Assembly: GCA_964575755.1 (NCBI GenBank)
Contig: CAZNRH010000002.1
Coordinates: 6,107-70,106 of the forward strand
Source: an uncultured Candidatus Saccharibacteria bacterium
Lineage (GTDB): Bacteria; Patescibacteriota; Minisyncoccia; Phycocordibacterales; JABMNX01
Direction of reading: 5' to 3'
DNA length: 64,000 nucleotides
In this document: piece by piece, positions 4,225-61,597 of the stretch
Numbering within the stretch: position 1 is the first letter of the stretch
Layout of the letters: the number at the start of each line of letters is the position of its first letter
The notes under the pieces: generated by a model
Seen by the model: the letters and a program-made list of their open reading frames with translations, nothing else
Database searches by the model: none
What the model was told of the DNA's origin: nothing
Made by a program: the position numbers and the translations under genes

Positions 4225-4635
4225 TTACCGCTTCGACCACTGTGGTGCTTTCCTTGCCTTTTTAAGACCAAACTTTTTACGCTCCTTCATTCTAGGATCT
4301 CGTTTTAAAAATCCAGCCCCTTTTAAACTTTTACGTAAGTCAATATTAAACTCAATAAGAGCACGAGATATTCCATGCCTTAAAGCTTCTGCCTGTGCAT
4401 GGATTCCACCTCCTTTTATTCTAGCTGTTACTTTAAAATTATCTTCATCTGCAGAGTGTTTTAAAGCTTCTTTAGCAACAGCCTGTAATTCATTTGTTGG
4501 GAAATGCTCATCAAGACCTTTTTTGTTGATAAAGATTTCGTCTTTCTTTGTCTTTGAAATACGAACTCTGGCAGTAGCTGTCTTTCGACGTCCAATAGTT
4601 TCTATGTATTTTTCTTTGTGTGTGAAATCAACCAT
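4225..4635 (-). CDS. rpsI: 30S ribosomal protein S9
   Basis: GRRKTATARV...GGGIHAQAEALRHGISRAL...KAPQWSKR conserved S9 signature. Confidence 0.9.
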   Translation of the reverse strand: MVDFTHKEKYIETIGRRKTATARVRISKTKKDEIFINKKGLDEHFPTNELQAVAKEALKHSADEDNFKVTARIKGGGIHAQAEALRHGISRALIEFNIDLRKSLKGAGFLKRDPRMKERKKFGLKKARKAPQWSKR

Positions 4636-4638
4636 AAT

Positions 4639-10996: not shown

Positions 10997-11023
10997 TTTT
11001 TACTCCAGTATACTGGAGTAAAA
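10997..11023 (-). terminator. Rho-independent terminator after alaS (TTTTTACTCCAG-TATA-CTGGAGTAAAA)
   Basis: Perfect 11-12 bp stem with A/T runs on both sides, 16 nt downstream of the alaS stop. Confidence 0.5.
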
Positions 11024-17376: not shown

Positions 17377-17405
17377 ATGGAATATTGTAACATAGCTAAT
17401 AAAAT

Positions 17406-17431
17406 AAATGCCCCAAGCATATGGGGCATTT
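17406..17431 (-). terminator. Hairpin terminator after mgtC (AAATGCCCCA-agcata-TGGGGCATTT)
   Basis: 10-bp perfect stem with flanking A/T runs; stem sequence related to the palindromes at 36982-37032 and 50082-50129. Confidence 0.5.
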
Positions 17432-17466
17432 ATTCTTAGTTAACTGAATTGTCTGGGACTCGATCC

Positions 17467-23741: not shown

Positions 23742-23768
23742 AAACACTCCAGTATAGCTGGAGTGTTT
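23742..23768 (-). terminator. Rho-independent terminator after the sigma-r4/HARE-HTH gene (AAACACTCCAG-TATAG-CTGGAGTGTTT)
   Basis: Perfect 11-bp stem with U-runs on both strands, 25 nt below the stop at 23793. Confidence 0.5.
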
Positions 23769-30560: not shown

Positions 30561-30589
30561 AAAAATCCAAGGTCGACCCTTGGATTTTT
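30561..30589 (-). terminator. Bidirectional hairpin terminator (AAAAATCCAAGG-tcgac-CCTTGGATTTTT)
   Basis: 12-bp perfect stem with A5/T5 arms, 4 nt below the stop of the 30593-31192 gene. Confidence 0.5.
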
Positions 30590-34897: not shown

Positions 34898-34948
34898 AAA
34901 CCACCATTCACTGTTCTAATGTTCTTAAGAACATTAGAACAGTGGTTT
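34898..34948 (-). terminator. Long perfect palindrome between uvrC stop and ddl start (ACTGTTCTAATGTTCTTAAGAACATTAGAACAGT)
   Basis: 34-nt perfect palindrome centred on CTTAAG, with AAACC/GGTTT outer pairing; weak U-run, so terminator or attenuator role is uncertain. Confidence 0.4.
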
Positions 34949-44760: not shown

Positions 44761-44802
44761 ACCCCATGAAATGTAGGAACATTTCATGGGGTAAACTTTT
44801 TT
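44761..44802 (+). terminator. Rho-independent terminator (ACCCCATGAAAT...ATTTCATGGGGT plus T6)
   Basis: 12-bp perfect stem then AAACTTTTTT, right after the stop of the plus-strand secreted-protein gene. Confidence 0.55.
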
Positions 44803-44808
44803 ATATAA

Positions 44809-45657
44809 TTATTGTTTCTTTTTATACTGATCAGATAATACCATCGCTCCATATAACCCACCAAGCGAGCCTAGCTGTGCTAACTTTATTTCGGGCAATT
44901 CTGGGAATATTTTTAATATTCCTTTCAAACATTCTATTGTATGATCAAGTGGAATTCTAGGGTCACCAACCATCATTGAACCCCCAAGCACAACTACGTT
45001 CGGTGACCAGTGAACTATTGTGTTATTTAATCCATATGCAAGATATCTTGCATATGTATCCCAAAATTCTTCGTCTTTAATTTCATATGGTTTCTTTCCT
45101 GTTCGTCTTTCAGTTGCTCTACCTGATATGTAATTTCCAAGAGTTATTCCATCACAATCTGAACAAAGCGCTTTACCAGCATCAATTATCTGCTGTCCTG
45201 GTTCAAAACCAACAACTTTACTATCAATAAACCCGTCAATAAATCGCGCACCCCCAACTCCTGTACTCACCGTAATGTATACCCCAATCCCCTCCTTTGC
45301 TCCTGCGCCATAGTGCATTTCTCCAAGCCCTACTACGGCAGAATCATTCTCTATATGAACAGGTACGTTAAACTCTTTTGTTAATTCATCACATAGAGAG
45401 CGCCCTATCCAATTTTTAAGATTAGGACTTCCAAGAAGGCTACAGACTCCTTTACCAAAAGGTCCAGCGATACCTCCGCATATCATTTCAATATTTTCTC
45501 CTGTAGAAATAACCTTTATCTTTTCTTTAAGTACACTCATTCCTTCATTGAAATCGACAGGCGTATTTACAACAATAGGCTCACCAACAAATTTTACAAG
45601 GTCGTGACTTCCCACAATACGCATCTTTGTTCCTCCTATGTCAAAAAGAATATACAT
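44809..45657 (-). CDS. ROK/BadF-type sugar kinase (glucokinase-like)
   Basis: N-terminal DIGGTKMR phosphate-1 motif, GIGVYITVSTGVGGA phosphate-2; actin-fold sugar kinase size. Confidence 0.6.
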   Translation of the reverse strand: MYILFDIGGTKMRIVGSHDLVKFVGEPIVVNTPVDFNEGMSVLKEKIKVISTGENIEMICGGIAGPFGKGVCSLLGSPNLKNWIGRSLCDELTKEFNVPVHIENDSAVVGLGEMHYGAGAKEGIGVYITVSTGVGGARFIDGFIDSKVVGFEPGQQIIDAGKALCSDCDGITLGNYISGRATERRTGKKPYEIKDEEFWDTYARYLAYGLNNTIVHWSPNVVVLGGSMMVGDPRIPLDHTIECLKGILKIFPELPEIKLAQLGSLGGLYGAMVLSDQYKKKQ

Positions 45658-50081: not shown

Positions 50082-50129
50082 AAGCCATAAAAAATGCCCC
50101 AGGTACCTGGGGCATTTTTTATGGCTTGT
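50082..50129 (-). repeat. 48-nt perfect palindrome / bidirectional terminator (CAAGCCATAAAAAATGCCCCAGGTACCTGGGGCATTTTTTATGGCTTG)
   Basis: Perfect inverted repeat centred on GGTACC with A6/T6 arms, between dsbB-like stop and bgl start; second copy at 36982-37032. Confidence 0.55.
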
Positions 50130-50669
50130 TTAGGCTCTTTTTGAACTCCCAACTATCATCATAATAATTATGATAAGTGCAAAGATTGAAAATGACATCA
50201 GAGGGAATGTGATATATCCAAACTCAAACAGAATTCGTTTAGCACAATCTGCACCAGCTCCAACCGCAGGGCACCCTATTACTTCTGTACCGCCCATTTG
50301 TAGGTAATGTTGATAGAGCGCAATAATAGACCCTATGGCAGATAGTGATATAAGATAATCTGAAACCATCACACCCTGCTTCTTAATGATTGCTATTCCC
50401 GCTAAAAGAAGCTGTGGGTATAAAACTACACGCTGCAACCAACACAATCCACATGGTACAAAGCCAAATATTTCAGAATACAGAAGACTGAAAGACACGC
50501 CACCTAATGTTAATAGAAATACTATATGAATTCCGTATTTTCCTAAAAAACTTAAAATTGGAGAATCTTTTTTAAAGAAAAATAATATAAGGAGAATTAT
50601 GACTGCTACCTGCATAAACAGAGCCCCGAGTGCTAAAAGAAAATTAAGTTGTGATACTATTTCTAACAT
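50130..50669 (-). CDS. Disulfide-bond formation protein B (BdbC/DsbB family)
   Basis: 4 TM helices; Cys pair in CGLCWLQR (BdbC-type CxxC) and second pair CPAVGAGADC in the periplasmic loop. Confidence 0.7.
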   Translation of the reverse strand: MLEIVSQLNFLLALGALFMQVAVIILLILFFFKKDSPILSFLGKYGIHIVFLLTLGGVSFSLLYSEIFGFVPCGLCWLQRVVLYPQLLLAGIAIIKKQGVMVSDYLISLSAIGSIIALYQHYLQMGGTEVIGCPAVGAGADCAKRILFEFGYITFPLMSFSIFALIIIIMMIVGSSKRA

Positions 50670-50683
50670 ATTTTATTATCTAT

Positions 50684-51058
50684 TTATTGTGTAATTTCAC
50701 ATCCTGTCTTCTCTGACAACGTCTCAAAAGAAAGTACTCCAAGCAATCTACTACCGTCTGCAAACTCCCATGTTGGATATGCCGTTATACCAGCGTCTTT
50801 ACAGACTTGTAGTTGGTTTTGTCCATTTGGTGTTGAACACTCTGTGTAATCTATAAACTTCTTAGACTTTCCAAATAAGTCATTCTGTTTCTGACAATTA
50901 GGGCACCAGAAAGCGCCAAAGTATTTCACATTATTATTTGTTAAGCACTGTGCAAATTCGTCATACTGTCCTGGCGTAACTGCATCATTGTAGTAATACC
51001 ACCCAAATAAAAGTACAACTACTACAAGAACCCCTATTATTATATTTTTTGTTTTCAT
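50684..51058 (-). CDS. Membrane-anchored thioredoxin-fold thiol-disulfide oxidoreductase (BdbD/DsbA-like)
   Basis: N-terminal TM anchor; thioredoxin CxxC motif FWCPNCQ; additional Cys pair. Confidence 0.65.
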   Translation of the reverse strand: MKTKNIIIGVLVVVVLLFGWYYYNDAVTPGQYDEFAQCLTNNNVKYFGAFWCPNCQKQNDLFGKSKKFIDYTECSTPNGQNQLQVCKDAGITAYPTWEFADGSRLLGVLSFETLSEKTGCEITQ

Positions 51059-51077: not shown

Positions 51078-51584
51078 TTAAGGAATAATACAAAATGCAG
51101 GATCGGTACAATCTACTCCAGCAAAAGTACCATCTATGTCTACATCAAGTGCTTCTTGTTCTATTTGTTCAAGAACTGCTTTAAGTAAATATCCTGCACA
51201 CAACCCTGACGAGCACACACCTCCATTATAATTTGTCCCTTGATATGAGTATGAATAAACACCCCTATTGAGAGGATCAATGGGCATAACTCTGATATAA
51301 CCTCCATCTGTAAGAACTGTGAACGTGTCTCCTGGAGGATAAAGTCCGTTAGTGTCGGCACCATAAAGCTCTAACGCATTCTTTATTTGTTGGAGGTCTT
51401 CAAAACGTCTACTGTCACGGCTTTTTTCACGTGCATCACTAAGAATAACCATACTAATACTGGTAAGAAATCCAATAATTGCTATCACAACCAAAAGTTC
51501 TATAAGTGTAAATCCCCGTCCACCTCGCAAGCGAGAGCGTTGCGGATTAGTATTTTTTTTATAATCTTTTTTAAAGAAAAACAT
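51078..51584 (-). CDS. Type IV pilin / pseudopilin with N-terminal methylation motif
   Basis: Class III signal GFTLIELLVVIAIIGFL; C-terminal domain with two Cys pairs (CSSGLC, CTDPAFC). Confidence 0.75.
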   Translation of the reverse strand: MFFFKKDYKKNTNPQRSRLRGGRGFTLIELLVVIAIIGFLTSISMVILSDAREKSRDSRRFEDLQQIKNALELYGADTNGLYPPGDTFTVLTDGGYIRVMPIDPLNRGVYSYSYQGTNYNGGVCSSGLCAGYLLKAVLEQIEQEALDVDIDGTFAGVDCTDPAFCIIP

Positions 51585-54408: not shown

Positions 54409-54945
54409 TTACTCACACACCAAAGGTTCCTTTATCTTTTTCAAGATTATGTAAGAAGAATAAATAAGTAAACCTACACCAAGAAAGCCAAACTCTTCAC
54501 CTCCAAAAGGTAAATAGACAAGTAAGCCACTTGCTCCAAATAAGGCTAATATTGAAGTGAATACAAATGTACCACATGTAGCACAGCCAATACCAAACAC
54601 TCCACTAACCAAGCCCCCTACACTCAAAGTAGTACCAGATGCTAAACTTTTTGTTTGTCTACTACGTATATAATAAACCAAAAGTGAGATATTTATACCA
54701 AACAGTACAGCTATAATAATCGTATAGCTTGCAGAAATAGCCGTAAAATTTGTTTGTATAGACCCAACAAAACTAAACATGAAACCTATTTTGTCTGTAA
54801 TAGGTACACTGGAATTAAATACTATGTCAATTACCAAACTGACGTTTGATAGCCACACCGCCAATACAAATATCACTACTGCAATAATAACTGCAGTAGC
54901 TATATATTTTATCTGAGAGAAAACCTTTTTAAAAGTATTTAACAC
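54409..54945 (-). CDS. Membrane protein with intramembrane CxxC (CATCGT)
   Basis: About 5 TM helices; Cys pair inside a TM helix; last gene of the CsoR-headed operon. Confidence 0.45.
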   Translation of the reverse strand: MLNTFKKVFSQIKYIATAVIIAVVIFVLAVWLSNVSLVIDIVFNSSVPITDKIGFMFSFVGSIQTNFTAISASYTIIIAVLFGINISLLVYYIRSRQTKSLASGTTLSVGGLVSGVFGIGCATCGTFVFTSILALFGASGLLVYLPFGGEEFGFLGVGLLIYSSYIILKKIKEPLVCE

Positions 54946-54947
54946 AA

Positions 54948-55697
54948 TTATTTTTTCTCTTTTAGAGCTATTTCAATAAGTTGTTTTACTGTTGAGTACG
55001 GCTGAGCACCAGAAAGTGGAAATGTTGTCTTGCTTTTTTCCGCGATAACTATACTCCACGGAGTACCTCTGGCTCCAGTCTCAATTGCATTATCTATATT
55101 GTCTTGTATGTGCTTATCATACTTCCCGCTATTCATACATGCACTAAATTTCTGCTCATCTATAGCAAGCTCTCTGACTATTTGAGGAATAACCACTTCA
55201 ATATTGATTTGATTGTTAGATGGTGTTAACTCAAACAATCTATCAGCGAATTTCCAAAACACATCATTACCACCTATCTCATTAGCGCACTCTGTCGCAA
55301 CTGCCTCAACGCGCGCTTTCACTGGATGTAATTGATCAATTGGAAAATGTCTATATACCCAAGCCACTTGTCCATCTGGACCATACTCATCCATGATTTG
55401 GTTCATTGTAACGTGGAATGACTTACAGAAAGGACACTCAAAATCAGAATATTCAACAATTTTTACGGGAGCATTTGGATTTCCTAATATATGATCTTCG
55501 TTTGTTACAGGGCGGACACTGTCAGTAGGGCTTACCTCTTTCGACACACTGTTTCCATTACTATACACCACTGCAAATGCTATAAGGGCTCCAGCTATTA
55601 CAATCGCAACTGGAACGAAAATATTATTCTTTGTCTCTTGCTCTTGATACTCTTCTTTGTTTTCTATATTTACAGTCTGATCTTCCATGGTACTCAA
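54948..55697 (-). CDS. Membrane-anchored DsbA-family thiol:disulfide oxidoreductase
   Basis: TM anchor then thioredoxin fold with CPFC active site (YSDFECPFCKSFH) and DsbA-type helical insertion. Confidence 0.7.
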   Translation of the reverse strand: MSTMEDQTVNIENKEEYQEQETKNNIFVPVAIVIAGALIAFAVVYSNGNSVSKEVSPTDSVRPVTNEDHILGNPNAPVKIVEYSDFECPFCKSFHVTMNQIMDEYGPDGQVAWVYRHFPIDQLHPVKARVEAVATECANEIGGNDVFWKFADRLFELTPSNNQINIEVVIPQIVRELAIDEQKFSACMNSGKYDKHIQDNIDNAIETGARGTPWSIVIAEKSKTTFPLSGAQPYSTVKQLIEIALKEKK

Positions 55698-55731: not shown

Positions 55732-57777
55732 TTATACCACCTCTAAATTAACTCGCTTTAAAGATAATGCATTAATAACAACGATAACCGTTGAAAGGCT
55801 CATTAGTAAAGCGCCTATCTCTGGACGTAAGAAAAATCCAAATACCGCAAACACTCCTGCTGCTGCTGGGATGGCGACAATGTTGTAGCCAAGCGCCCAC
55901 ACAAGATTTTGAATCATCTTTGTATATACTGCTTTTGAGAGTACAAGTAATTTAACAATATCCCTAGGGTCGCTCTTCATAAGCACTACGTCGCCAGCCT
56001 CCACAGCAACATCCGTACCAGCCCCTATTGCGATACCTACATTTGCTTGAGTTAATGCTGGCGCATCATTTACACCGTCGCCTACCATAAGAACTACACT
56101 ACCGTCTTCTTGTAATTTTTTTATATGATTGTACTTATCTTCAGGTAGAACATTTGCAAAATATGTGTCTATGTTGAGTTTTTTTGCTACCCCTCCCGCA
56201 ACATCATTGTTATCACCAGTAAGCATCGCGACCTTAACCCCAAGCTTGTGTAGTTTACTGACAGCGCTATATGATTCATCTTTTATTTCATCAGAAAGAG
56301 CAATCACCCCAACTACCTTCTTGTCACTTGTAATAAATACTGACGTCTTGCCCTCTGCAGAAAAATCTGCATACACCTTCTCTGCTTCAGTATCTGATAT
56401 CTTAGCGTCTGTTATAAGTGCATGATTTCCAACTCCATGCTCAACACCATCAACCACGCCACTAACCCCCTTACCTGCTATGTTTTTAAACTGCTTAGGA
56501 TTACTCAAAACAATCCCTTTTTCTTTTACATAATTTACAATAGACTTCCCAATAATATGAGAAGAGTGCTGTTCTAGAGATGCAACTATCTTTAATACTT
56601 GATCATCTGTGTGCTCGTTAAATGACACAATATCAGTCACCCCAAACTCTCCTTTTGTTAAGGTGCCTGTTTTATCAAATACAACATAATTAGTTTTTTT
56701 AATAACTTCAATTTTTGACAAATCTTTAATAAACACACCATTTTTTACCGCCAGTGAAGTTGTGATGGTGGTGACTGTCGGTATAGCCAGACCAAGGGCA
56801 TGAGGGCACGCCACAACAAGCACGGTGATACCAAGGGTAATAGAAAACACAAACGGTTCCCCCATAAACACAGACCACACAAGAATTGTTAAGAGAGCGG
56901 TGATACCAGCAATAAAAGTAAGCATAGCAGCGGCTTTATCTGCAATACGCTGTGAGCGTGGTTTTGTACTTTGTGCGTCAGAAATAAGTTTCTGAATTTG
57001 ACCAATAGTAGAGTCTTCACCAACTCGAGATAACACTATGACAAGTGAACCATCTAAACATATAGAACCAGCCACAACTTCGTCTTTTTCTTTTTTCTCA
57101 ATAGGTTTTGATTCCCCACTTATAAGTGACTCGTCTATGTTCGCAGAACCTTCTTTAATAATTCCATCTGCAGGAATCTTCTCTCCTGGTTTTACCAGTA
57201 CGATATCCCCATCCTTCAGAAGTTCAACACCCACCTCCTCTTCCACCCCATTTACAATCTTATGGGCTTTCTTAGGTAAAAGCTTAGCAACTTCTTGGAG
57301 GGCATTACCAGCAGCAGTACTAGAGCGTGCCTCAAGATAATGCCCAAAAAGAAGTACCCATATAAGTGTAGATATTTCAATATAAAACTCTGCGTCTAGT
57401 GCTGGTATAAACGTAGAAACTACAGAAAAAAGGTACCCTGAACCAACAGCCAGAGAGACCAGGGTCATCATTCCATATTTCCGAGCCTTTATCTCGTGCG
57501 ATGCGTGCTCGAAAAACACTAGAGCAAAACCAAATATAATTGTTGCTATGCCGAGCTGAATCCACTTACCAAGAGGGAGTGTACCTATTCCTATAAACCC
57601 CACTACGGATTCATTTGTAAATATAAGTGGAATTAAAAGAAATGTAACAATCCAAAATCTACGAAGAAAATCCCTAGATGAACCGTGATCCATCCCAGGG
57701 CTACTAGAATGCTCGACGCCACACGCGTCGTGTTGCTTATCACCACAATGTTCCATACTCACATTCTTTTGTGTCAC
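55732..57777 (-). CDS. copB: P1B-type heavy-metal (copper) translocating ATPase, CopB-like
   Basis: TM6 CPH motif (VVACPHALGLAIPT), DKTGTLT, GDGVNDAPAL, TGES actuator; His/Cys-rich N-terminus (MEHCGDKQHDACGVEH) instead of a classic GMTCxxC HMA domain. Confidence 0.9.
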   Translation of the reverse strand: MTQKNVSMEHCGDKQHDACGVEHSSSPGMDHGSSRDFLRRFWIVTFLLIPLIFTNESVVGFIGIGTLPLGKWIQLGIATIIFGFALVFFEHASHEIKARKYGMMTLVSLAVGSGYLFSVVSTFIPALDAEFYIEISTLIWVLLFGHYLEARSSTAAGNALQEVAKLLPKKAHKIVNGVEEEVGVELLKDGDIVLVKPGEKIPADGIIKEGSANIDESLISGESKPIEKKEKDEVVAGSICLDGSLVIVLSRVGEDSTIGQIQKLISDAQSTKPRSQRIADKAAAMLTFIAGITALLTILVWSVFMGEPFVFSITLGITVLVVACPHALGLAIPTVTTITTSLAVKNGVFIKDLSKIEVIKKTNYVVFDKTGTLTKGEFGVTDIVSFNEHTDDQVLKIVASLEQHSSHIIGKSIVNYVKEKGIVLSNPKQFKNIAGKGVSGVVDGVEHGVGNHALITDAKISDTEAEKVYADFSAEGKTSVFITSDKKVVGVIALSDEIKDESYSAVSKLHKLGVKVAMLTGDNNDVAGGVAKKLNIDTYFANVLPEDKYNHIKKLQEDGSVVLMVGDGVNDAPALTQANVGIAIGAGTDVAVEAGDVVLMKSDPRDIVKLLVLSKAVYTKMIQNLVWALGYNIVAIPAAAGVFAVFGFFLRPEIGALLMSLSTVIVVINALSLKRVNLEVV

Positions 57778-57795: not shown

Positions 57796-58062
57796 TTAAT
57801 TTTTATCTTTTTCCAACTCTTCAAATTTTTCTGTAAATTGTTCTTTTGTTGCACCTCCAAAAACAAAAAATTTATCGTTGACCAAAATACCAGGACTTGA
57901 AAGGATCCCATACTTTTTAACCATTTCCTGTCCCTCAGGGGTCACCATATCAACTTCTTCGATTGTTATATCAGGATAATCTGATTTCATTTCTTCAAGT
58001 GTTGCTTTTACCGCTTTACAATGTGCACATCCATCTGGACGAATAAGTGTTACTTTTAACAT
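57796..58062 (-). CDS. Glutaredoxin/thioredoxin-like small protein (CAHC)
   Basis: 88 aa, CxxC motif PDGCAHCKAV near N-terminus, thioredoxin-fold length. Confidence 0.6.
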   Translation of the reverse strand: MLKVTLIRPDGCAHCKAVKATLEEMKSDYPDITIEEVDMVTPEGQEMVKKYGILSSPGILVNDKFFVFGGATKEQFTEKFEELEKDKN

Positions 58063-58088: not shown

Positions 58089-58322
58089 TTAATTTTTCCG
58101 ACCTTTTTTAATAATTTTTGCTACAACTACTGTCGCGACAATAATTAAAACTGCAACAAGTGGTCCAACCCAATCCGCCTCAGAAATCACGGTGATGTTT
58201 TCCTCTCCTTCATGAGCAAACACAGTTGCGGACGACAGTAGAAAGTATGCGATTGTGAGAATGGTTAATTTCACCCCGTTAGAAGTCTGTCTTACATAAC
58301 TACTATGTTTAATTTTATACAT
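58089..58322 (-). CDS. Small secreted/membrane protein with HEGEEN motif and C-terminal TM anchor
   Basis: Signal peptide, acidic His/Glu patch, C-terminal helix plus KKGRKN stop-transfer. Confidence 0.35.
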   Translation of the reverse strand: MYKIKHSSYVRQTSNGVKLTILTIAYFLLSSATVFAHEGEENITVISEADWVGPLVAVLIIVATVVVAKIIKKGRKN

Positions 58323-58376: not shown

Positions 58377-59342
58377 TCATATATTTTTAATATTTCTTTT
58401 TGAATGAATAGCGTCCCAAAGAACAATTACTCCGATAATACCCCCAAATACAAGCCATGGGACAATACCACCTTCACCAGATGGGATACTGAGCGAGGCT
58501 TCAATAGCACCCGACTCAGCAATTCTAGGAAATGCAATTTCTAACCATCTATTCCACGCTTGATGGATGATAGAATCTTCAAACCATGCCATACCAAATA
58601 TGCCGTAGTTTAATATGAATGCACCAAGACCAACCAACATCCATGAAACCCACCGTTTCACTTTTTCTTGATAGTCACTAACCTTGCTCATAGCGTTAAT
58701 TCCTAAGACTGCCAAGACCACCAAGAAAAGTAGTGGTACGACTCTACCAAGTCCATGTATAGCGCCAAGCGAAGCTCCTACTGTTGGTATTCCAACAGTC
58801 GCAACATAACCAAATAAAATATAAAACGCAGGATTAGGGCATCCTACACCAGCATTGCCTAAGAAAAAACCTAAAAAGAAACTCCTCAAATAGTCATTTT
58901 TGCCTTGGAGAGATTTAGGCATGATTGTCTGCTTAAAAGGTAATCTAAACTTCACAAGACCAAGTTCCGAAATACCAAAGAAAAGTGCCGCGACCCCTCC
59001 AATCAAAAGCATAGCACTTATAATCTTGTACAATGCAACAAATCCACCAAGCCATCCAAGGACAACTCCGTATATAGTGAATGTAACAATGAGTCCAAGC
59101 CCAAAGAGAAGTGCCATCATGAACCCCTTACCTTTTTCTCGCGAAAGAGCTAACGGAACAATAATAAAGACAAGCGGAAATGTACATGGTAGTACTATCA
59201 TAGAAAGCCCCGCAAGAAATGCGAGAGAATATCCAGGTATGAACTCAGACGAGGTCATAAAACTGAAGACCCCAATGAGAATAATCGACAAAAGTACAAA
59301 TGCCGAGAATACAAGCCAAATTTTAAAAACTTTTGAAGTCAT
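58377..59342 (-). CDS. DsbD/CcdA-family membrane thiol-disulfide electron transporter-like protein
   Basis: Polytopic; two intramembrane Cys in CcdA-like contexts (MIVLPCTFPL and GVGCPNPAF). Confidence 0.5.
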   Translation of the reverse strand: MTSKVFKIWLVFSAFVLLSIILIGVFSFMTSSEFIPGYSLAFLAGLSMIVLPCTFPLVFIIVPLALSREKGKGFMMALLFGLGLIVTFTIYGVVLGWLGGFVALYKIISAMLLIGGVAALFFGISELGLVKFRLPFKQTIMPKSLQGKNDYLRSFFLGFFLGNAGVGCPNPAFYILFGYVATVGIPTVGASLGAIHGLGRVVPLLFLVVLAVLGINAMSKVSDYQEKVKRWVSWMLVGLGAFILNYGIFGMAWFEDSIIHQAWNRWLEIAFPRIAESGAIEASLSIPSGEGGIVPWLVFGGIIGVIVLWDAIHSKRNIKNI

Positions 59343-59382: not shown

Positions 59383-59859
59383 TTATTCAACATCATTTTT
59401 AACAACATTGCCTGAAAACGTCACTTTAATCTCTGGTGTAACTGTAGAATTGGTTTTAAGCATTAATTCTCGCTTTATTTTACCTATACCATTTGGTCCA
59501 TGTGCAAGAGGGTCAAAAGTAGCAGTAAGAGTCTTTTCTTCTCCAGCTGGAATAATCACAGTTTTACCAGAACTTTCATGCATACCAAATTCTAAATCAC
59601 CTATTTTTCCTGCTGTGCACATACAGCTTGTTACAGCCGATAAAATACTAACATCTTCATCTCCTTCATTTTTAAGTGTATACGTAGTACTTACTTTTCC
59701 ACTAAATATGTCTATGTCACCGAAGTCATGTGATGGTTCAACAACTGTTATAACCGATGCAACTTCAGTAAGTTGAGAAGTTTCATCTTTTGTTAATCCA
59801 TATGAAGCAACTATGAGTATCCCTACAAGTATTAATGCTCCTATTATATATTTATTCAT
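59383..59859 (-). CDS. Secreted DUF1573-domain protein
   Basis: Signal peptide; HDFGDI...YTLKNEGDEDVSI...SCMCT pattern typical of DUF1573 Ig-like domains. Confidence 0.55.
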   Translation of the reverse strand: MNKYIIGALILVGILIVASYGLTKDETSQLTEVASVITVVEPSHDFGDIDIFSGKVSTTYTLKNEGDEDVSILSAVTSCMCTAGKIGDLEFGMHESSGKTVIIPAGEEKTLTATFDPLAHGPNGIGKIKRELMLKTNSTVTPEIKVTFSGNVVKNDVE

Positions 59860-59884: not shown

Positions 59885-60739
59885 CTATTCCCCTTCTTTA
59901 ATGTCGACTTGTATTGCCACTTCAGCTTCAGGTGTTAATTTATCGTTAGTTGGGATAAAAATCGTGCGCTTAAATACACCAAGTGGTTCTTCATGAAAAT
60001 CTGGGTTGAAAAACACAGTGAGGATTGTCTCTCCTCCTTTAGGAATGGTTCGTGAAGCAACATTTGCAGATGTACAACTACAACTTGTTGTAATATCTCC
60101 TATTACAAGTTCCTCTGTTCCCTCATTCTTTACTGTAAAAGTTGTCTCTACTACACCACCATATTGTGTGATAACACCGAAATCATGCATAATACGGTCA
60201 AGAGTTATCCTTGGACCATCTGAAGATGCGTCTACATCATTCCCGCTCGCTGTGTTCGCACCAGTAAGCGCTCCTGTTTCAGTAAATGGGTAATTATCTT
60301 CTTCCCAATGAATCATTCCTCCTGAAACACTCTTTATATTTGTGTAACCAAGTGAATTCATAATGTCATATGCGGTCTTACTCCGCGCACCGCTTCTGCA
60401 ATATATAATGATCTCTTTGTCTTTTGAGGACTCTCCCAATCCAATACTAGCTAGCGACTGCTGTGATAATTCTTGAACTGGAAGAAGTAGAGCACCTTTT
60501 AGATGGATTTCCTCATATTCTCCTAAAGTTCGTACGTCTAGTAAAATAATATCTTTATTATTTTTAATTTTGTTGGCTACATCTTCTGGATAAATTTCGT
60601 GACTTTCTACCATCTCGTTTTCATGATGTCCTACATCTGTCATCATACTGTTGTTATTCATACTAGTTGTAAAAAAGTAACCGATTCCTATAACAACAAC
60701 TAATGTAAAAGATATAGTAGCAATGTTGTTTATATTCAT
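59885..60739 (-). CDS. Membrane-anchored rhodanese (sulfurtransferase) domain fused to a DUF1573 domain
   Basis: Rhodanese active-site loop YCRSGARS; C-terminal HDFGVI...FTVKNEGTEELVI...SCSCT DUF1573. Confidence 0.7.
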   Translation of the reverse strand: MNINNIATISFTLVVVIGIGYFFTTSMNNNSMMTDVGHHENEMVESHEIYPEDVANKIKNNKDIILLDVRTLGEYEEIHLKGALLLPVQELSQQSLASIGLGESSKDKEIIIYCRSGARSKTAYDIMNSLGYTNIKSVSGGMIHWEEDNYPFTETGALTGANTASGNDVDASSDGPRITLDRIMHDFGVITQYGGVVETTFTVKNEGTEELVIGDITTSCSCTSANVASRTIPKGGETILTVFFNPDFHEEPLGVFKRTIFIPTNDKLTPEAEVAIQVDIKEGE

Positions 60740-60742
60740 ATG

Positions 60743-61012
60743 TTATTTTTTCTTTGATAATTTATATACTGATAAAATTTCATCTATTGCGCGTTTATGT
60801 TTACCACTCTTCATTTGTTGAACCACATGTGTAGATAAGTGGTTTTCAAGCATCATATCTTCAATAGAAGAAAGAGCCTGCCGTACAGCAGATGTCTGAG
60901 TAATAACATCAACGCAATACTCCCCTTCTTCGATCATTTTATAGAGCCCCTTGACCTGACCTTCGATTATTTTAAGTCTTCGTAGCAATTTCTTCTTTAC
61001 TTCTTTTTTCAT
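60743..61012 (-). CDS. csoR: CsoR/RcnR-family metal-sensing transcriptional repressor
   Basis: LRRLKIIEGQVKGLYKMIEEGEYCVDVITQ; ligand positions read x-C-H-H (Cys in YCVDV, His in ENHL and STHV), intermediate between CsoR (x-C-H-C) and RcnR (H-C-H-H). Confidence 0.8.
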   Translation of the reverse strand: MKKEVKKKLLRRLKIIEGQVKGLYKMIEEGEYCVDVITQTSAVRQALSSIEDMMLENHLSTHVVQQMKSGKHKRAIDEILSVYKLSKKK

Positions 61013-61019
61013 GTCAGTG

Positions 61020-61044
61020 TATAATACCCCATGGGGGTATTATA
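61020..61044. promoter_or_regulatory. Candidate CsoR operator: perfect palindrome TATAATACCCC-ATG-GGGGTATTATA in the divergent promoter region
   Basis: 11-nt perfect inverted arms around ATG; ATACCCC...GGGGTAT matches the G/C-tract pseudo-palindromes bound by CsoR-family repressors; overlaps a -10-like TATAAT. Confidence 0.6.
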
Positions 61045-61135
61045 GGTCAAGTGTTTTTTATAGCATCTGTGATACACCACCATTAAGACAGAGTGTGAAC
61101 CGTATATTATTAACGTATTAACTTCATAAATTACT

Positions 61136-61597
61136 ATGAAAAAGATTCTATTACCGCTACTATTTGTGGCTATTGCTATGCCGTTATTATCAAGCGCTCA
61201 TTCAGGAGACACTTCGTCATTCTCTAACACAGACTTCGGACAAGGTTTCATGATGATGCAAGAAGCTGAAGATCGTGCACTTGGCAATGATTTACATGAG
61301 GAAATGGAAGGTCTTATGTTAAAGACAATATCAGACGACATGTCTCAAGCAGACATGGATAGACTTCTTGTTCTTATGGACGAGCATCCAGGAGCTGGTT
61401 CAATGATGATGGGTCGCATGATGGGAGGATATTACAATACTGGATCTGGTTGCTTTTTTAGTGCTGGTTCTATGTATGGGTTCCACAGAGGATCAGGACT
61501 TTGGGGAAGCCTGTTTATGATTATCTTCTGGGGGTTGGCTATAACAGGACTTGTAACTGCTCTTAAGTACGTAAGAAACAATAGAAAATCAAAATAA
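61136..61597 (+). CDS. Secreted Met-rich (putative copper-binding) protein with C-terminal TM anchor
   Basis: Signal peptide; Met clusters (GFMMMQEA, GSMMMGRMMGG) like Met-rich Cu(I) sites; divergent from csoR. Confidence 0.55.
   Translation: MKKILLPLLFVAIAMPLLSSAHSGDTSSFSNTDFGQGFMMMQEAEDRALGNDLHEEMEGLMLKTISDDMSQADMDRLLVLMDEHPGAGSMMMGRMMGGYYNTGSGCFFSAGSMYGFHRGSGLWGSLFMIIFWGLAITGLVTALKYVRNNRKSK

What the first reader, a model, noticed from the sequence alone, without database searches (positions are those of the whole stretch)
60743..61044. Perfect palindromic operator and non-canonical x-C-H-H fingerprint in the CsoR-family repressor
The csoR / Met-rich-protein intergenic region holds the perfect palindrome TATAATACCCCATGGGGGTATTATA. 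Its ATACCCC..GGGGTAT core is the G/C-tract pseudo-palindrome bound by CsoR/RcnR repressors. Aligned to the CsoR ligand positions, the repressor has Cys in YCVDV and His in ENHL, but His (STHV) where CsoR has its second Cys, and no His at position 3. That gives x-C-H-H, between copper CsoR (x-C-H-C) and Ni/Co RcnR (H-C-H-H), so the metal or ligand specificity is not predictable from sequence.
Basis: partly seen in the sequence, partly recalled or inferred. Interest (0 to 1): 0.6.

Follow-up and report, generated by a model that had tools for sequence, protein, structure and literature searches.

The report
Copper-type CsoR repressor with its operator
This is an ordinary, self-regulating copper-sensor switch (a CsoR repressor sitting on a textbook CsoR DNA site) in an uncultured Patescibacteria genome; its Cys-His-His metal site is a variant already described in Thermus, so it is a new member of a known kind and not a new sensor type.

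Summary
An 89-aa PF02583 repressor is encoded at 60743-61012 (-). Eight bases upstream lies an inverted repeat at 61020-61044, with 11-nt perfect arms and a 3-nt spacer. Its core ATACCCC-N3-GGGGTAT equals the published CsoR box and is unique in the window. Gap-free alignments to solved CsoRs give X=Cys33, Y=His58, Z=His62 and no W, so the fingerprint is x-C-H-H.

The x-C-H-H fingerprint is already published (Thermus thermophilus CsoR, SSN cluster 17) and is treated as a Cu(I) sensor class. Specificity is reasonably predictable here:
- The second-shell Tyr32 and Glu78 are invariant.
- Only three conserved ligands exist.
- The operon carries a CopB-type (CPH) copper ATPase.
- A 76%-identical relative has csoR > ATPase > multicopper oxidase.
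- Two 78-79% identical homologues carry Cys at Z.

The operator sits between a TTGAC -35 and a TATTAT -10, with the ATG 11 nt downstream, in about 20 Patescibacteria loci. This implies autoregulation of a leaderless operon.

Verdict: a new member of a known kind, of modest interest. The residual novelty is a large, uncharacterised, single-Cys CPR clade. It appears to lie apart from the Thermus cluster and couples copper efflux with extracytoplasmic thiol-redox genes.

The parts
60743..61012 (-). csoR-family repressor gene, 89 aa. Ligand positions are Cys33, His58 and His62 (x-C-H-H), with second-shell Tyr32 and Glu78. It has a single Cys.
   Evidence: PF02583 at 92.3 bits. Gap-free alignments to 4m1p, 2hh7, 4adz and 3aai. 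AF2 model with pLDDT 93.4 and three helices at 3-28, 33-68 and 72-88. Best fold match is Cu(I)-CsoR 4m1p, TM 0.84.
61020..61044 (.). CsoR operator: an 11-bp perfect inverted repeat with a 3-nt spacer. The core is 61024-61040, ATACCCCATGGGGGTAT.
   Evidence: The same core sits upstream of csoR in about 20 non-redundant related loci. It equals the published CsoR box.
61045..61050 (-). -35 hexamer TTGACC of the csoR promoter.
   Evidence: Promoter scan gives TTGACC-18-TATTAT, 10 of 12 matches. TTGAC lies 4-5 nt upstream of the operator core in nearly all related loci.
61021..61026 (-). -10 hexamer TATTAT of the csoR promoter, overlapping the promoter-proximal operator arm. The ATG lies 8 nt beyond it, so a leaderless or near-leaderless mRNA is inferred.
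   Evidence: The spacing from operator to ATG is fixed at 11 nt in 10 non-redundant loci, the window included. No SD-like sequence is present in ACACTGAC.
60996..61025 (+). Candidate divergent promoter TTTACT-18-TATAAT. It would read through the operator towards the Met-rich gene. This is speculative.
   Evidence: 10 of 12 matches. TATAAT on this strand is kept in L003 and L004, which also carry the Met-rich gene.
61136..61597 (+). Divergent gene for a Met-rich protein of 153 aa. It has a signal peptide, GFMMM and SMMMGRMMG motifs and a C-terminal TM helix. A role as an extracytoplasmic copper-binding protein is inferred only.
   Evidence: No Pfam or NCBIfam hit. Only 5 database relatives. Found divergent from csoR in L003 and L004/L022 as well.
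59885..60739 (-). Membrane-anchored rhodanese plus DUF1573 (CxC) protein. It is the first gene after csoR, with a 3-nt gap.
   Evidence: Pfam PF00581 and PF07610. Synteny in L001-L004.
59383..59859 (-). DUF1573 (CxC) protein.
   Evidence: Synteny in L001-L004 and L017.
58377..59342 (-). DsbD/CcdA-type transmembrane thiol-disulfide electron transporter.
   Evidence: PF02683. Present in L002 and L017.
57796..58062 (-). Small thioredoxin/glutaredoxin-like protein. It is preceded by a 77-aa membrane protein at 58089-58322.
   Evidence: Synteny in L002.
55732..57777 (-). CopB-type (P1B-3) copper-exporting P-type ATPase. It has a His/Cys-rich N-terminus, CPH, GYN(X)4P and MSLST.
   Evidence: TIGR01511 ATPase-IB1_Cu at 562.9 bits against a cut-off of 397. 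Motifs. Signature definition from PMC5552934.
54948..55697 (-). DsbA-like thioredoxin-fold protein. It is followed by a 178-aa membrane protein at 54409-54945.
   Evidence: PF13462 and PF01323. Synteny in L002 and L003.

Best explanation
This is a copper-responsive CsoR repressor that autoregulates its own operon.

Proposed mechanism:
- Without copper, the apo tetramer binds the ATACCCC-N3-GGGGTAT operator. By analogy with S. lividans CsoR, two tetramers probably bind per site.
- The operator fills the spacer and overlaps the -10 of a TTGACC-18-TATTAT promoter, so binding occludes RNA polymerase.
- When cytoplasmic Cu(I) rises, it is bound in a three-coordinate site. The site bridges two subunits and is made of Cys33 from one subunit and His58' and His62' from the other.
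- The Tyr32/Glu78 second-shell network transmits this, the protein leaves the DNA, and a leaderless transcript is made.
- The transcript covers csoR, an extracytoplasmic thiol-redox module (rhodanese-DUF1573, DUF1573, DsbD_TM, Trx and, after the ATPase, DsbA-like) and a CopB-type copper-efflux ATPase.
- The divergent Met-rich exported protein may be co-repressed through the same site.

Shown here: family, fold, ligand positions, operator identity, operator/promoter conservation, and the copper-type ATPase in the operon.

Inferred: Cu(I) as the inducer, stoichiometry, the allosteric route, co-transcription, leaderless initiation, and control of the divergent gene.
For: - Family and fold: PF02583 at 92 bits. 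The AF2 model is a three-helix protein with pLDDT 93. Its best structural match is Cu(I)-bound Geobacillus CsoR 4m1p, TM 0.84 and rmsd 1.8 A.
- Ligands: Cys33, His58 and His62 align without gaps to the Cu(I) ligands of solved CsoRs and to the C-H-H of T. thermophilus CsoR.
- Conservation: Tyr32, Cys33, His58 and Glu78 are present in 120 of 120 close homologues, and His62 in 118 of 120. The other two homologues have Cys at that position at 78-79% identity.
- Contrast with other sensors: RcnR, FrmR and CstR lack the Tyr, and RcnR and FrmR also lack the Glu.
- Literature: x-C-H-H is the T. thermophilus CsoR class, assigned to Cu(I) sensing.
- Operator: it equals the C. glutamicum CsoR box and obeys TAC-N9-GTA. 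It is unique in the window, with 8e-5 copies expected.
- Promoter architecture: the TTGAC-N4/5-operator-(-10) arrangement recurs in about 20 non-redundant loci, whether Z is His or Cys.
- Context: the operon's ATPase passes the copper-ATPase model TIGR01511 (563 bits against 397) and has all P1B-3 motifs.
- Relatives: C-H-H csoR genes sit next to CPH, CPD or CPC copper-type ATPases. In L016 the order is csoR > ATPase > multicopper oxidase.
- Operon structure: gene gaps are 2-54 nt and no terminator-like site falls in an intergenic gap.
- Precedent: Cu-induced Dsb-like modules are known from ScsABCD.
Against: - No experiment exists on any member of this clade.
- T. thermophilus CsoR, the only characterised C-H-H protein, responds in vitro to several metals, and its Cu(I) specificity 'has not been unequivocally evaluated'.
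- The protein is not close to the Thermus protein. It scores 44 bits to 3aai against 60 bits to Geobacillus CsoR, and a crude NJ tree places it apart. Transfer of function therefore rests on motif and context.
- No CopZ/HMA chaperone gene is in the window. The published Cu(I) clusters usually have CopA plus CopZ as neighbours.
- The second Arg of the S. lividans RLXR DNA-binding motif (R57) is Ile15 here.
- A promoter-like site at 59390-59361 inside the cluster could drive the downstream genes independently.
Confidence: 0.8

Rival explanations
1. It is a broad-specificity metal sensor. The His at Z relaxes selectivity, so the repressor is released by Cu(I) and Cu(II) and also by Zn, Cd, Ag or Ni, as reported in vitro for T. 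thermophilus CsoR. The operon would then be a general soft-metal and envelope-stress response.
For: T. thermophilus C-H-H CsoR coordinates Cu+, Cu2+, Zn2+ and Cd2+, and the low selectivity was attributed to His70 and His5. [quoted passage not shown] Imidazole is a harder ligand than thiolate (general coordination chemistry).
Against: The N-terminal His implicated in Thermus (His5) has no counterpart here, since the protein has no His before residue 58. Only three conserved ligands exist, which suits trigonal Cu(I) better than tetrahedral or octahedral ions. All neighbouring ATPases are copper subtypes, and one locus has a multicopper oxidase. In-cell selectivity is set by relative buffered metal levels, which in vitro promiscuity does not predict.
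Confidence: 0.12
2. It is a Ni(II)/Co(II) sensor of the RcnR type, because the X-Y-Z residues C-H-H are those of RcnR.
For: X-Y-Z is C-H-H as in E. coli RcnR.
Against: W (His3) is absent. The NCBIfam RcnR equivalog scores 46 bits against a cut-off of 138. Position 32 is Tyr, not Glu, and position 78 is Glu, not Val. The operator is the interrupted-tract CsoR type and not the RcnR AGTA/G-tract site. No rcnA-like gene is nearby; the neighbour is a copper ATPase. The close homologues P0101 and P0114 have Cys at Z, giving canonical x-C-H-C.
Confidence: 0.03
3. It is a non-metal sensor (persulfide, oxidant or aldehyde) controlling a sulfur/thiol-redox operon. This is suggested by the rhodanese, DsbD, Trx and DsbA genes that lie between csoR and the ATPase.
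For: A rhodanese gene directly follows csoR, and four further thiol-redox genes are in the cluster. CstR-type CsoR relatives control sulfurtransferase operons.
Against: CstR chemistry needs two Cys (x-C-x-C) to form cross-links between subunits. This protein has one Cys, as do 114 of 120 close homologues. FrmR needs Pro2, and the FrmR model scores 43 bits against a cut-off of 133. The Cu-ligand His58 is invariant, whereas CstR has Asn there. In relatives the redox genes are dispensable, but a copper-type ATPase is present in most loci with enough downstream sequence; none was found within 6 kb in L004.
Confidence: 0.04

Closest known systems
Thermus thermophilus HB8 CsoR (PDB 3AAI; SSN cluster 17 of Fakhoury et al. 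2021)
   Same: It has the same X-Y-Z fingerprint Cys-His-His and the same second-shell Tyr and Glu. It has the same fold and is treated as a copper sensor next to a copper ATPase.
   Different: Similarity is only 44 bits, and in a crude NJ tree it falls outside the window's clade. The Thermus protein has N-terminal His residues (His5) that some authors count as W, and the window protein has none. Cluster 17 neighbours are typically P1B-1 CopA plus CopZ. Here the neighbour is a P1B-3 CopB-type pump, there is no CopZ, and a thiol-redox module is added.
Cluster-1 Cu(I) CsoRs: Geobacillus thermodenitrificans (4M1P), B. subtilis and S. lividans CsoR
   Same: These are the best sequence and structure matches: 60 bits, TM 0.84 and rmsd 1.8 A to Cu(I)-bound 4m1p. 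They share the X Cys, Y His, Tyr/Glu second shell, the Arg12 and Gln39 equivalents, and operator type.
   Different: Z is His62 instead of Cys. The equivalent of S. lividans Arg57 (RLXR motif) is Ile15. The protein is minimal at 89 aa, with no N-terminal extension.
C. glutamicum and Streptomyces CsoR operators (ATACCCCnnnGGGGTAT; ATATACCCCTNAGGGGTATAT; TAC-N9-GTA)
   Same: The window core ATACCCC-ATG-GGGGTAT is an exact instance of the C. glutamicum box. It has TAC and GTA separated by 9 bp.
   Different: The arms here extend to a perfect 11 bp, and one arm overlaps the -10 hexamer of the csoR promoter (plus a speculative TATAAT on the opposite strand). The operator lies between the -35 and -10 of a probably leaderless promoter.
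E. coli RcnR (H-C-H-H Ni/Co sensor)
   Same: It belongs to the same Pfam family and has the same residues at X, Y and Z.
   Different: The window protein lacks W His3. It differs in second-shell residues, operator type and neighbouring genes, and it falls below the RcnR model cut-off.
Salmonella/Caulobacter ScsABCD (suppressor of copper sensitivity)
   Same: It is a copper-induced set of DsbD-like, DsbA/C-like and membrane Trx-like envelope proteins. This resembles the DsbD_TM, Trx and DsbA-like genes of this operon.
   Different: It is regulated by CpxR/A, not CsoR. It has no rhodanese or DUF1573 proteins and is not fused into one operon with the efflux ATPase. Homology to the Scs proteins was not tested here.

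Membership tests
CsoR/RcnR superfamily (PF02583) | Match to the family profile above the curated cut-off | tested here: met
   92.3 bits against a cut-off of 22.8.
CsoR/RcnR superfamily (PF02583) | All-helical three-helix protomer, with X at the N-terminus of helix 2 and Y/Z one turn apart on helix 2 | tested here: met
   AF2 model with pLDDT 93.4 and helices at 3-28, 33-68 and 72-88. Top PDB fold hits are all CsoR-family proteins.
CsoR/RcnR superfamily (PF02583) | Homotetramer (dimer of dimers) with inducer sites that bridge two subunits | not testable with these tools
   Only a monomer could be modelled.
Cu(I)-sensing CsoR, canonical x-C-H-C | X = Cys and Y = His | tested here: met
   Cys33 and His58, each invariant in 120 of 120 homologues.
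Cu(I)-sensing CsoR, canonical x-C-H-C | Z = Cys | tested here: not met
   Z is His62. It is His in 118 of 120 close homologues and Cys in two.
Cu(I)-sensing CsoR, canonical x-C-H-C | Second-shell Tyr (before X) and Glu (helix 3) that couple Cu(I) binding to DNA release | tested here: met
   Tyr32 and Glu78 align with Mt Tyr35 and Glu81 and are present in 120 of 120 homologues.
Cu(I)-sensing CsoR, canonical x-C-H-C | Type-2 G/C-tract pseudopalindromic operator with a TAC-N9-GTA dyad near its own or a copper-efflux promoter | tested here: met
   Operator at 61024-61040, conserved across about 20 loci.
Cu(I)-sensing CsoR, canonical x-C-H-C | Adjacent copper-exporting P1B ATPase | tested here: met
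   The ATPase at 55732-57777 passes TIGR01511. Related loci also carry one.
Cu(I)-sensing CsoR, canonical x-C-H-C | Adjacent CopZ (HMA) chaperone, which is usual but not universal | tested here: not met
   No credible M-x-C-x-x-C ORF in the window.
Cu(I)-sensing CsoR, canonical x-C-H-C | Cu(I)-dependent release from DNA and attomolar-or-tighter Cu(I) affinity | not testable with these tools
   This needs biochemistry.
x-C-H-H CsoR (T. thermophilus type, SSN cluster 17) | X-Y-Z = Cys-His-His with no conserved W | tested here: met
   Definition from PMC8643695.
x-C-H-H CsoR (T. thermophilus type, SSN cluster 17) | Sequence clustering with T. thermophilus CsoR | tested here: inconclusive
   It scores 44 bits to 3aai against 60 bits to Geobacillus CsoR. 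The NJ tree without support values puts the Thermus protein outside the query's clade. The published SSN could not be rerun.
RcnR (H-C-H-H Ni/Co sensor) | W = His3 near the N-terminus, in addition to C-H-H | tested here: not met
   The N-terminus is MKKEVKKK, and there is no His before residue 58. The RcnR equivalog scores 46 bits against a cut-off of 138.
CstR (x-C-x-C persulfide sensor) | Two conserved Cys (X and Z), with Y not His | tested here: not met
   The protein has a single Cys, and Y is His.
FrmR (P-C-H-x formaldehyde sensor) | Pro2 at W | tested here: not met
   Residue 2 is Lys. The FrmR equivalog scores 43 bits against a cut-off of 133.
P1B-3 (CopB-type) ATPase, for the regulated pump | CPH in TM6, GYN(X)4P in TM7, MSXST in TM8 and a His-rich N-terminus | tested here: met
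   VVACPHALG at 321, GYNIVAIP at 630 and MSLST at 659. The N-terminus has 4 His and 2 Cys in the first 31 residues. Signature from PMC5552934.

The most novel reading that the evidence does not exclude
The window's repressor may represent a large Patescibacteria-wide lineage of single-Cys, W-less x-C-H-H CsoRs that acquired His at Z independently of the Thermus cluster. In this lineage Z still toggles between His and Cys among near-identical proteins.

Under this reading, the Cys-to-His swap would not be neutral. It would make the sensor immune to the disulfide or persulfide cross-linking that can affect dithiol CsoRs, or it would retune metal selectivity. This would suit organisms whose copper operon is fused to an extracytoplasmic rhodanese/DUF1573(CxC)/DsbD/Trx/DsbA thiol-repair module and is transcribed from an operator-embedded leaderless promoter.
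Probability: 0.2. Interest if true: 0.5.

Novelty: new member of a known kind. Interest (0 to 1): 0.27.

Why it matters
The finding gives a clean, testable regulator and operator pair for copper homeostasis in Patescibacteria (CPR), a group with almost no experimentally characterised transcription factors.

The clade offers a natural experiment on the Z ligand, because His and Cys variants exist at 78-79% identity on the same operator. This could help settle whether the x-C-H-H site changes metal selectivity or redox robustness, a point that reviews still list as unresolved for Thermus CsoR.

It also corrects database gene models. The 96-aa versions of the repressor start at the ATG inside the operator.

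It does not reveal a new sensor class.

Tried and rejected
- Further operator copies in the window: none. The only hit with up to 3 mismatches (37969) is at chance level, so no second regulated promoter is visible within 64 kb.
- Structured RNA in the 5' region of the Met-rich gene or around csoR: Rfam in E-value mode gave only sub-threshold chance hits.
- Annotation of the Met-rich protein, the 77-aa membrane protein and the 178-aa membrane protein: no Pfam or NCBIfam family. Only 5 relatives of the Met-rich protein are in 5.8 billion sequences.
- CopZ/HMA search by motif: negative.
- The Sakamoto 2010 primary paper on T. thermophilus CsoR and the supplements of Fakhoury 2021 are not held. 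Statements about them are second-hand.
- A literature search for CsoR in Patescibacteria found nothing specific.
- The idea that the palindrome is distinctive simply because it is perfect was rejected. The window has about 8 other perfect palindromes with arms of 11 nt or more, and they are terminator-like.
- An N-terminal extension that might supply a W ligand was rejected. An in-frame TAA lies 30 nt upstream of the ATG, and the 96-aa database variants begin at the ATG in the operator centre.
Full report
**1. What is in the sequence**

The ORF at 60743-61012 on the minus strand encodes an 89-aa protein. Its sequence is MKKEVKKKLLRRLKIIEGQVKGLYKMIEEGEYCVDVITQTSAVRQALSSIEDMMLENHLSTHVVQQMKSGKHKRAIDEILSVYKLSKKK.

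It matches Pfam PF02583 (metal-sensitive transcriptional repressor) at 92.3 bits, against a cut-off of 22.8.

Eight bases upstream of its ATG lies an inverted repeat at 61020-61044. The arms are TATAATACCCC and GGGGTATTATA, 11 nt each and 100% complementary, with a 3-nt spacer. "Perfect palindrome" is therefore slightly loose, because the 3-nt centre ATG is not self-complementary.

The core ATACCCCNNNGGGGTAT occurs once in the window. About 8e-5 copies are expected from base composition. The only other match allowing up to 3 mismatches (37969) is at chance level.

Perfect palindromes with arms of 11 nt or more are frequent in this window: about 9 distinct ones, against 0.15 expected. The others lie 10-50 nt after stop codons of minus-strand genes and look like terminator hairpins. 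The csoR palindrome is distinguished by its sequence and its promoter position.

**2. The W-X-Y-Z fingerprint**

phmmer against PDB sequences gives gap-free alignments over residues 6-65. The matched proteins are:
- Geobacillus CsoR (4m1p, 60 bits)
- M. tuberculosis CsoR (2hh7)
- S. lividans CsoR (4adz)
- T. thermophilus CsoR (3aai, 44 bits)
- Salmonella FrmR E64H (5lcy)

Cys33 aligns with the X Cys, His58 with the Y His, and His62 with the Z Cys of the canonical proteins. His62 also aligns with the Z His of the Thermus protein (LRAHLKDHV against LENHLSTHV).

The protein has no His before residue 58, so no W ligand exists.

The second-shell pair that couples Cu(I) binding to DNA release in M. 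tuberculosis CsoR (Tyr35/Glu81) is present as Tyr32/Glu78.

An AlphaFold2 model (pLDDT 93.4) has helices at 3-28, 33-68 and 72-88. Its best PDB fold match is Cu(I)-bound Geobacillus CsoR, with TM 0.84 and rmsd 1.8 A.

**3. Is x-C-H-H uncharted? No.**

- Fakhoury et al. 2021 (PMC8643695) define SSN cluster 17, represented by T. thermophilus CsoR, as a cluster of Cu sensors with an x-C-H-H motif.
- The 2024 Chemical Reviews survey (PMC11672702) repeats this. It notes that Cu(I) specificity has not been unequivocally evaluated and that the Cys-to-His change may increase promiscuity.
- Another paper (PMC5057107) reports that the Thermus protein binds Cu+, Cu2+, Zn2+ and Cd2+, and counts its His5 as W.

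**4. How common is it among relatives?**

The organism is a Patescibacteria (Kaiserbacteria-like) MAG.

| Set | C-H-H | C-H-C | Source |
|---|---|---|---|
| 120 closest database proteins (70-100% identity) | 118 | 2 (P0101, P0114; HLSTCV, 78-79% identical) | |
| Best 150 representatives of 50%-identity clusters | 43 | 89 | |

Of the 120 closest proteins, 114 contain a single Cys.

A distance tree, which is crude and has no support values, gives the following picture:
- The query sits in a C-H-H clade.
- That clade is sister to a C-H-C clade of other Patescibacteria.
- A second C-H-H clade lies beyond these.
- T. thermophilus CsoR falls elsewhere.

The Z position therefore seems to have switched more than once, and His and Cys appear functionally interchangeable. 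This argues for the same job, copper sensing.

**5. The operator and promoter**

The core equals the C. glutamicum CsoR box 5'-ATACCCCnnnGGGGTAT-3'. It fits the Streptomyces consensus ATATACCCCTNAGGGGTATAT and the 5'-TAC-N9-GTA-3' dyad. That dyad is essential for S. lividans CsoR binding at two tetramers per site.

The promoter scan finds TTGACC (61050-61045), an 18-nt spacer and TATTAT (61026-61021) on the csoR strand. The operator thus fills the spacer and overlaps the -10.

In about 20 non-redundant related loci from genomes and metagenomes, the same architecture recurs whether Z is His or Cys. It reads TTGAC(N), then 4-5 nt, then ATACCCC-N3-GGGGTAT, then the rest of the -10 (tat, cat or aat).

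In 10 non-redundant loci, the window included, the ATG begins exactly 11 nt after the operator core, which is 8 nt after the -10, and there is no Shine-Dalgarno sequence. I infer a leaderless or near-leaderless mRNA.

Database proteins of 96 aa that begin MGVLYT[NH]M start at the ATG in the centre of the operator. They are mis-called starts.

On the opposite strand, the same arm reads TATAAT (61020-61025) with TTTACT 18 nt upstream. This TATAAT is retained in L003 and L004, which also carry the divergent Met-rich gene. Co-repression of that gene through the same site is possible but unproven.

**6. What the repressor controls**

Downstream on the minus strand, with gaps of 2-54 nt and no terminator-like hairpin in any intergenic gap, lie the following genes:
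- a membrane-anchored rhodanese-DUF1573 protein
- a DUF1573 protein (both DUF1573 proteins have a CxC motif)
- a DsbD/CcdA-type membrane protein
- a 77-aa membrane protein
- a small thioredoxin-like protein
- a 681-aa P-type ATPase
- a DsbA-like protein
- a 178-aa membrane protein

The ATPase passes the copper-ATPase model TIGR01511, at 563 bits against a cut-off of 397. It has every P1B-3 (CopB) signature listed in PMC5552934: CPH, GYN(X)4P, MSLST and a His/Cys-rich N-terminus.

Synteny in relatives:

| Locus | Gene order after csoR |
|---|---|
| L001-L003 | same order as the window, with or without the DsbD-Trx block, ending in an ATPase |
| L004 | rhodanese-DUF1573 > DUF1573; no ATPase found within 6 kb |
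| L017 | DUF1573 > DsbD_TM > ATPase |
| L016 | ATPase > multicopper oxidase |

More distant C-H-H loci carry CPD- or CPC-type copper ATPases.

Side observations add to the metal context:
- In L006, a second operator precedes a membrane protein with a CC...CC tail.
- In L009 and L010, a 25-aa Cys-rich, metallothionein-like ORF sits between operator and csoR.

Copper-induced Dsb-like envelope modules have a precedent in ScsABCD.

No CopZ-like gene is present. A promoter-like site at 59390-59361 could give the distal genes some independent expression.

**7. Mechanism**

The best-supported model (confidence about 0.8) runs as follows:
- Apo-CsoR binds the operator and blocks the TTGACC/TATTAT promoter.
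- Cu(I) binds in a three-coordinate site made of Cys33 from one subunit and His58' and His62' from the other.
- The Tyr32/Glu78 network lowers DNA affinity.
- The operon is derepressed and produces more repressor, the CopB pump and envelope thiol-redox proteins.

The steps shown here are family, fold, ligand positions, operator identity and conservation, and the copper-type pump. The steps inferred are the inducer, stoichiometry, allostery, co-transcription and leaderless initiation.

Three conserved ligands and no N-terminal His argue against an RcnR-like six-coordinate Ni/Co site. A single Cys argues against CstR-type cross-linking chemistry. Lys2 argues against FrmR chemistry.

The main live rival (about 0.12) is a promiscuous metal response, as reported in vitro for the Thermus protein.

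**8. Comparison and novelty**

The protein works like a CsoR and is a member of the CsoR superfamily.
- It fails one defining feature of canonical x-C-H-C CsoRs (Z = Cys).
- It meets the motif definition of the x-C-H-H class.
- Clustering with the Thermus cluster is inconclusive to negative.

It differs from described Cu(I) clusters in three ways: it regulates a P1B-3 pump without CopZ, its operon includes rhodanese, DUF1573 and Dsb-type genes, and its promoter is embedded in the operator and apparently leaderless.

None of this is a new principle, so I rate it a new member of a known kind, with interest about 0.27.

The residual novel reading has a probability of about 0.2. It is that this is an independently evolved, CPR-wide, single-Cys C-H-H lineage in which the His substitution has an adaptive meaning, either redox insulation or retuned selectivity.

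Noticed in passing
window 10998-11023, 17405-17432, 23742-23768, 30562-30588, 34913-34940, 44763-44790, 45033-45056, 50091-50118: Eight further perfect palindromes with arms of 11 nt or more, against 0.15 expected. Most lie 10-50 nt after stop codons of minus-strand genes and have A-run/T-run flanks, so they look like bidirectional terminator hairpins. Two pairs share cores: AATGCCCCA...TGGGGCATT at 17405 and 50091, and ACTCCAGTATA...CTGGAGT at 10998 and 23742. The shared cores could point to a repeated element or to another regulator's site.
   Followed up: partly
L009 4524-4601 (also L010), between the operator at 4449 and csoR at 4637: A 25-aa Cys-rich ORF, MTKTKDCECTTCTCKTCECKKTCCK, lies between the CsoR operator and a C-H-C csoR in Parcubacteria MAGs. 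It looks like a tiny metallothionein under CsoR control, reminiscent (from memory) of MymT in the M. tuberculosis RicR regulon.
   Followed up: partly
L006 3044-3060 and 3115-3414: A second operator copy (ATACCCCCTATGGGTAT) lies 70 nt upstream of a 99-aa membrane protein with a C-terminal CC...CC tail. Some relatives therefore have regulons with two operators.
   Followed up: partly
L002 5980-6270 and L004 5980-6273, plus database proteins of 96 aa (e.g. P0006, P0008, P0020): Gene models beginning MGVLYT[NH]M start at the ATG in the centre of the operator itself. The true start is 7 codons downstream. This is a systematic mis-annotation caused by the CCC-TATG-GGG operator centre.
   Followed up: yes
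window 59885-60739, 59383-59859 and 58377-59342: A membrane-anchored rhodanese (active-site loop CRSGAR) is fused to a DUF1573 Ig-like domain with a CxC motif. It is followed by a second DUF1573-CxC protein and a DsbD_TM protein. The DsbD_TM protein weakly resembles the rhodanese/DsbD fusion selenoprotein TsoB (44 bits, far below the cut-off). A conserved csoR-linked module of unknown role, possibly envelope thiol repair or Cu(II) reduction.
   Followed up: partly
window 61136-61597: A Met-rich exported, membrane-anchored protein (GFMMMQ..LHEEMEGLM..PGAGSMMMGRMMGG) has no family assignment and only 5 relatives in 5.8 billion proteins. Some relatives carry a SHOCT domain. It is always divergent from csoR where found.
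   Followed up: partly
L016 7279-7881 and L017 7230-7872: In loci that lack the Met-rich gene, the divergent partners of csoR are a small (63-85 aa, weak SHOCT) protein and a DUF302 protein.
   Followed up: no
window 50130-51058 and 54948-55697: The window carries several further disulfide-bond genes: a DsbB-like protein at 50130-50669, a Cys-rich 124-aa exported protein at 50684-51058, and a DsbA-like protein in the csoR operon. Next to them is a type IV pilin-like gene at 51078-51584.
   Followed up: no
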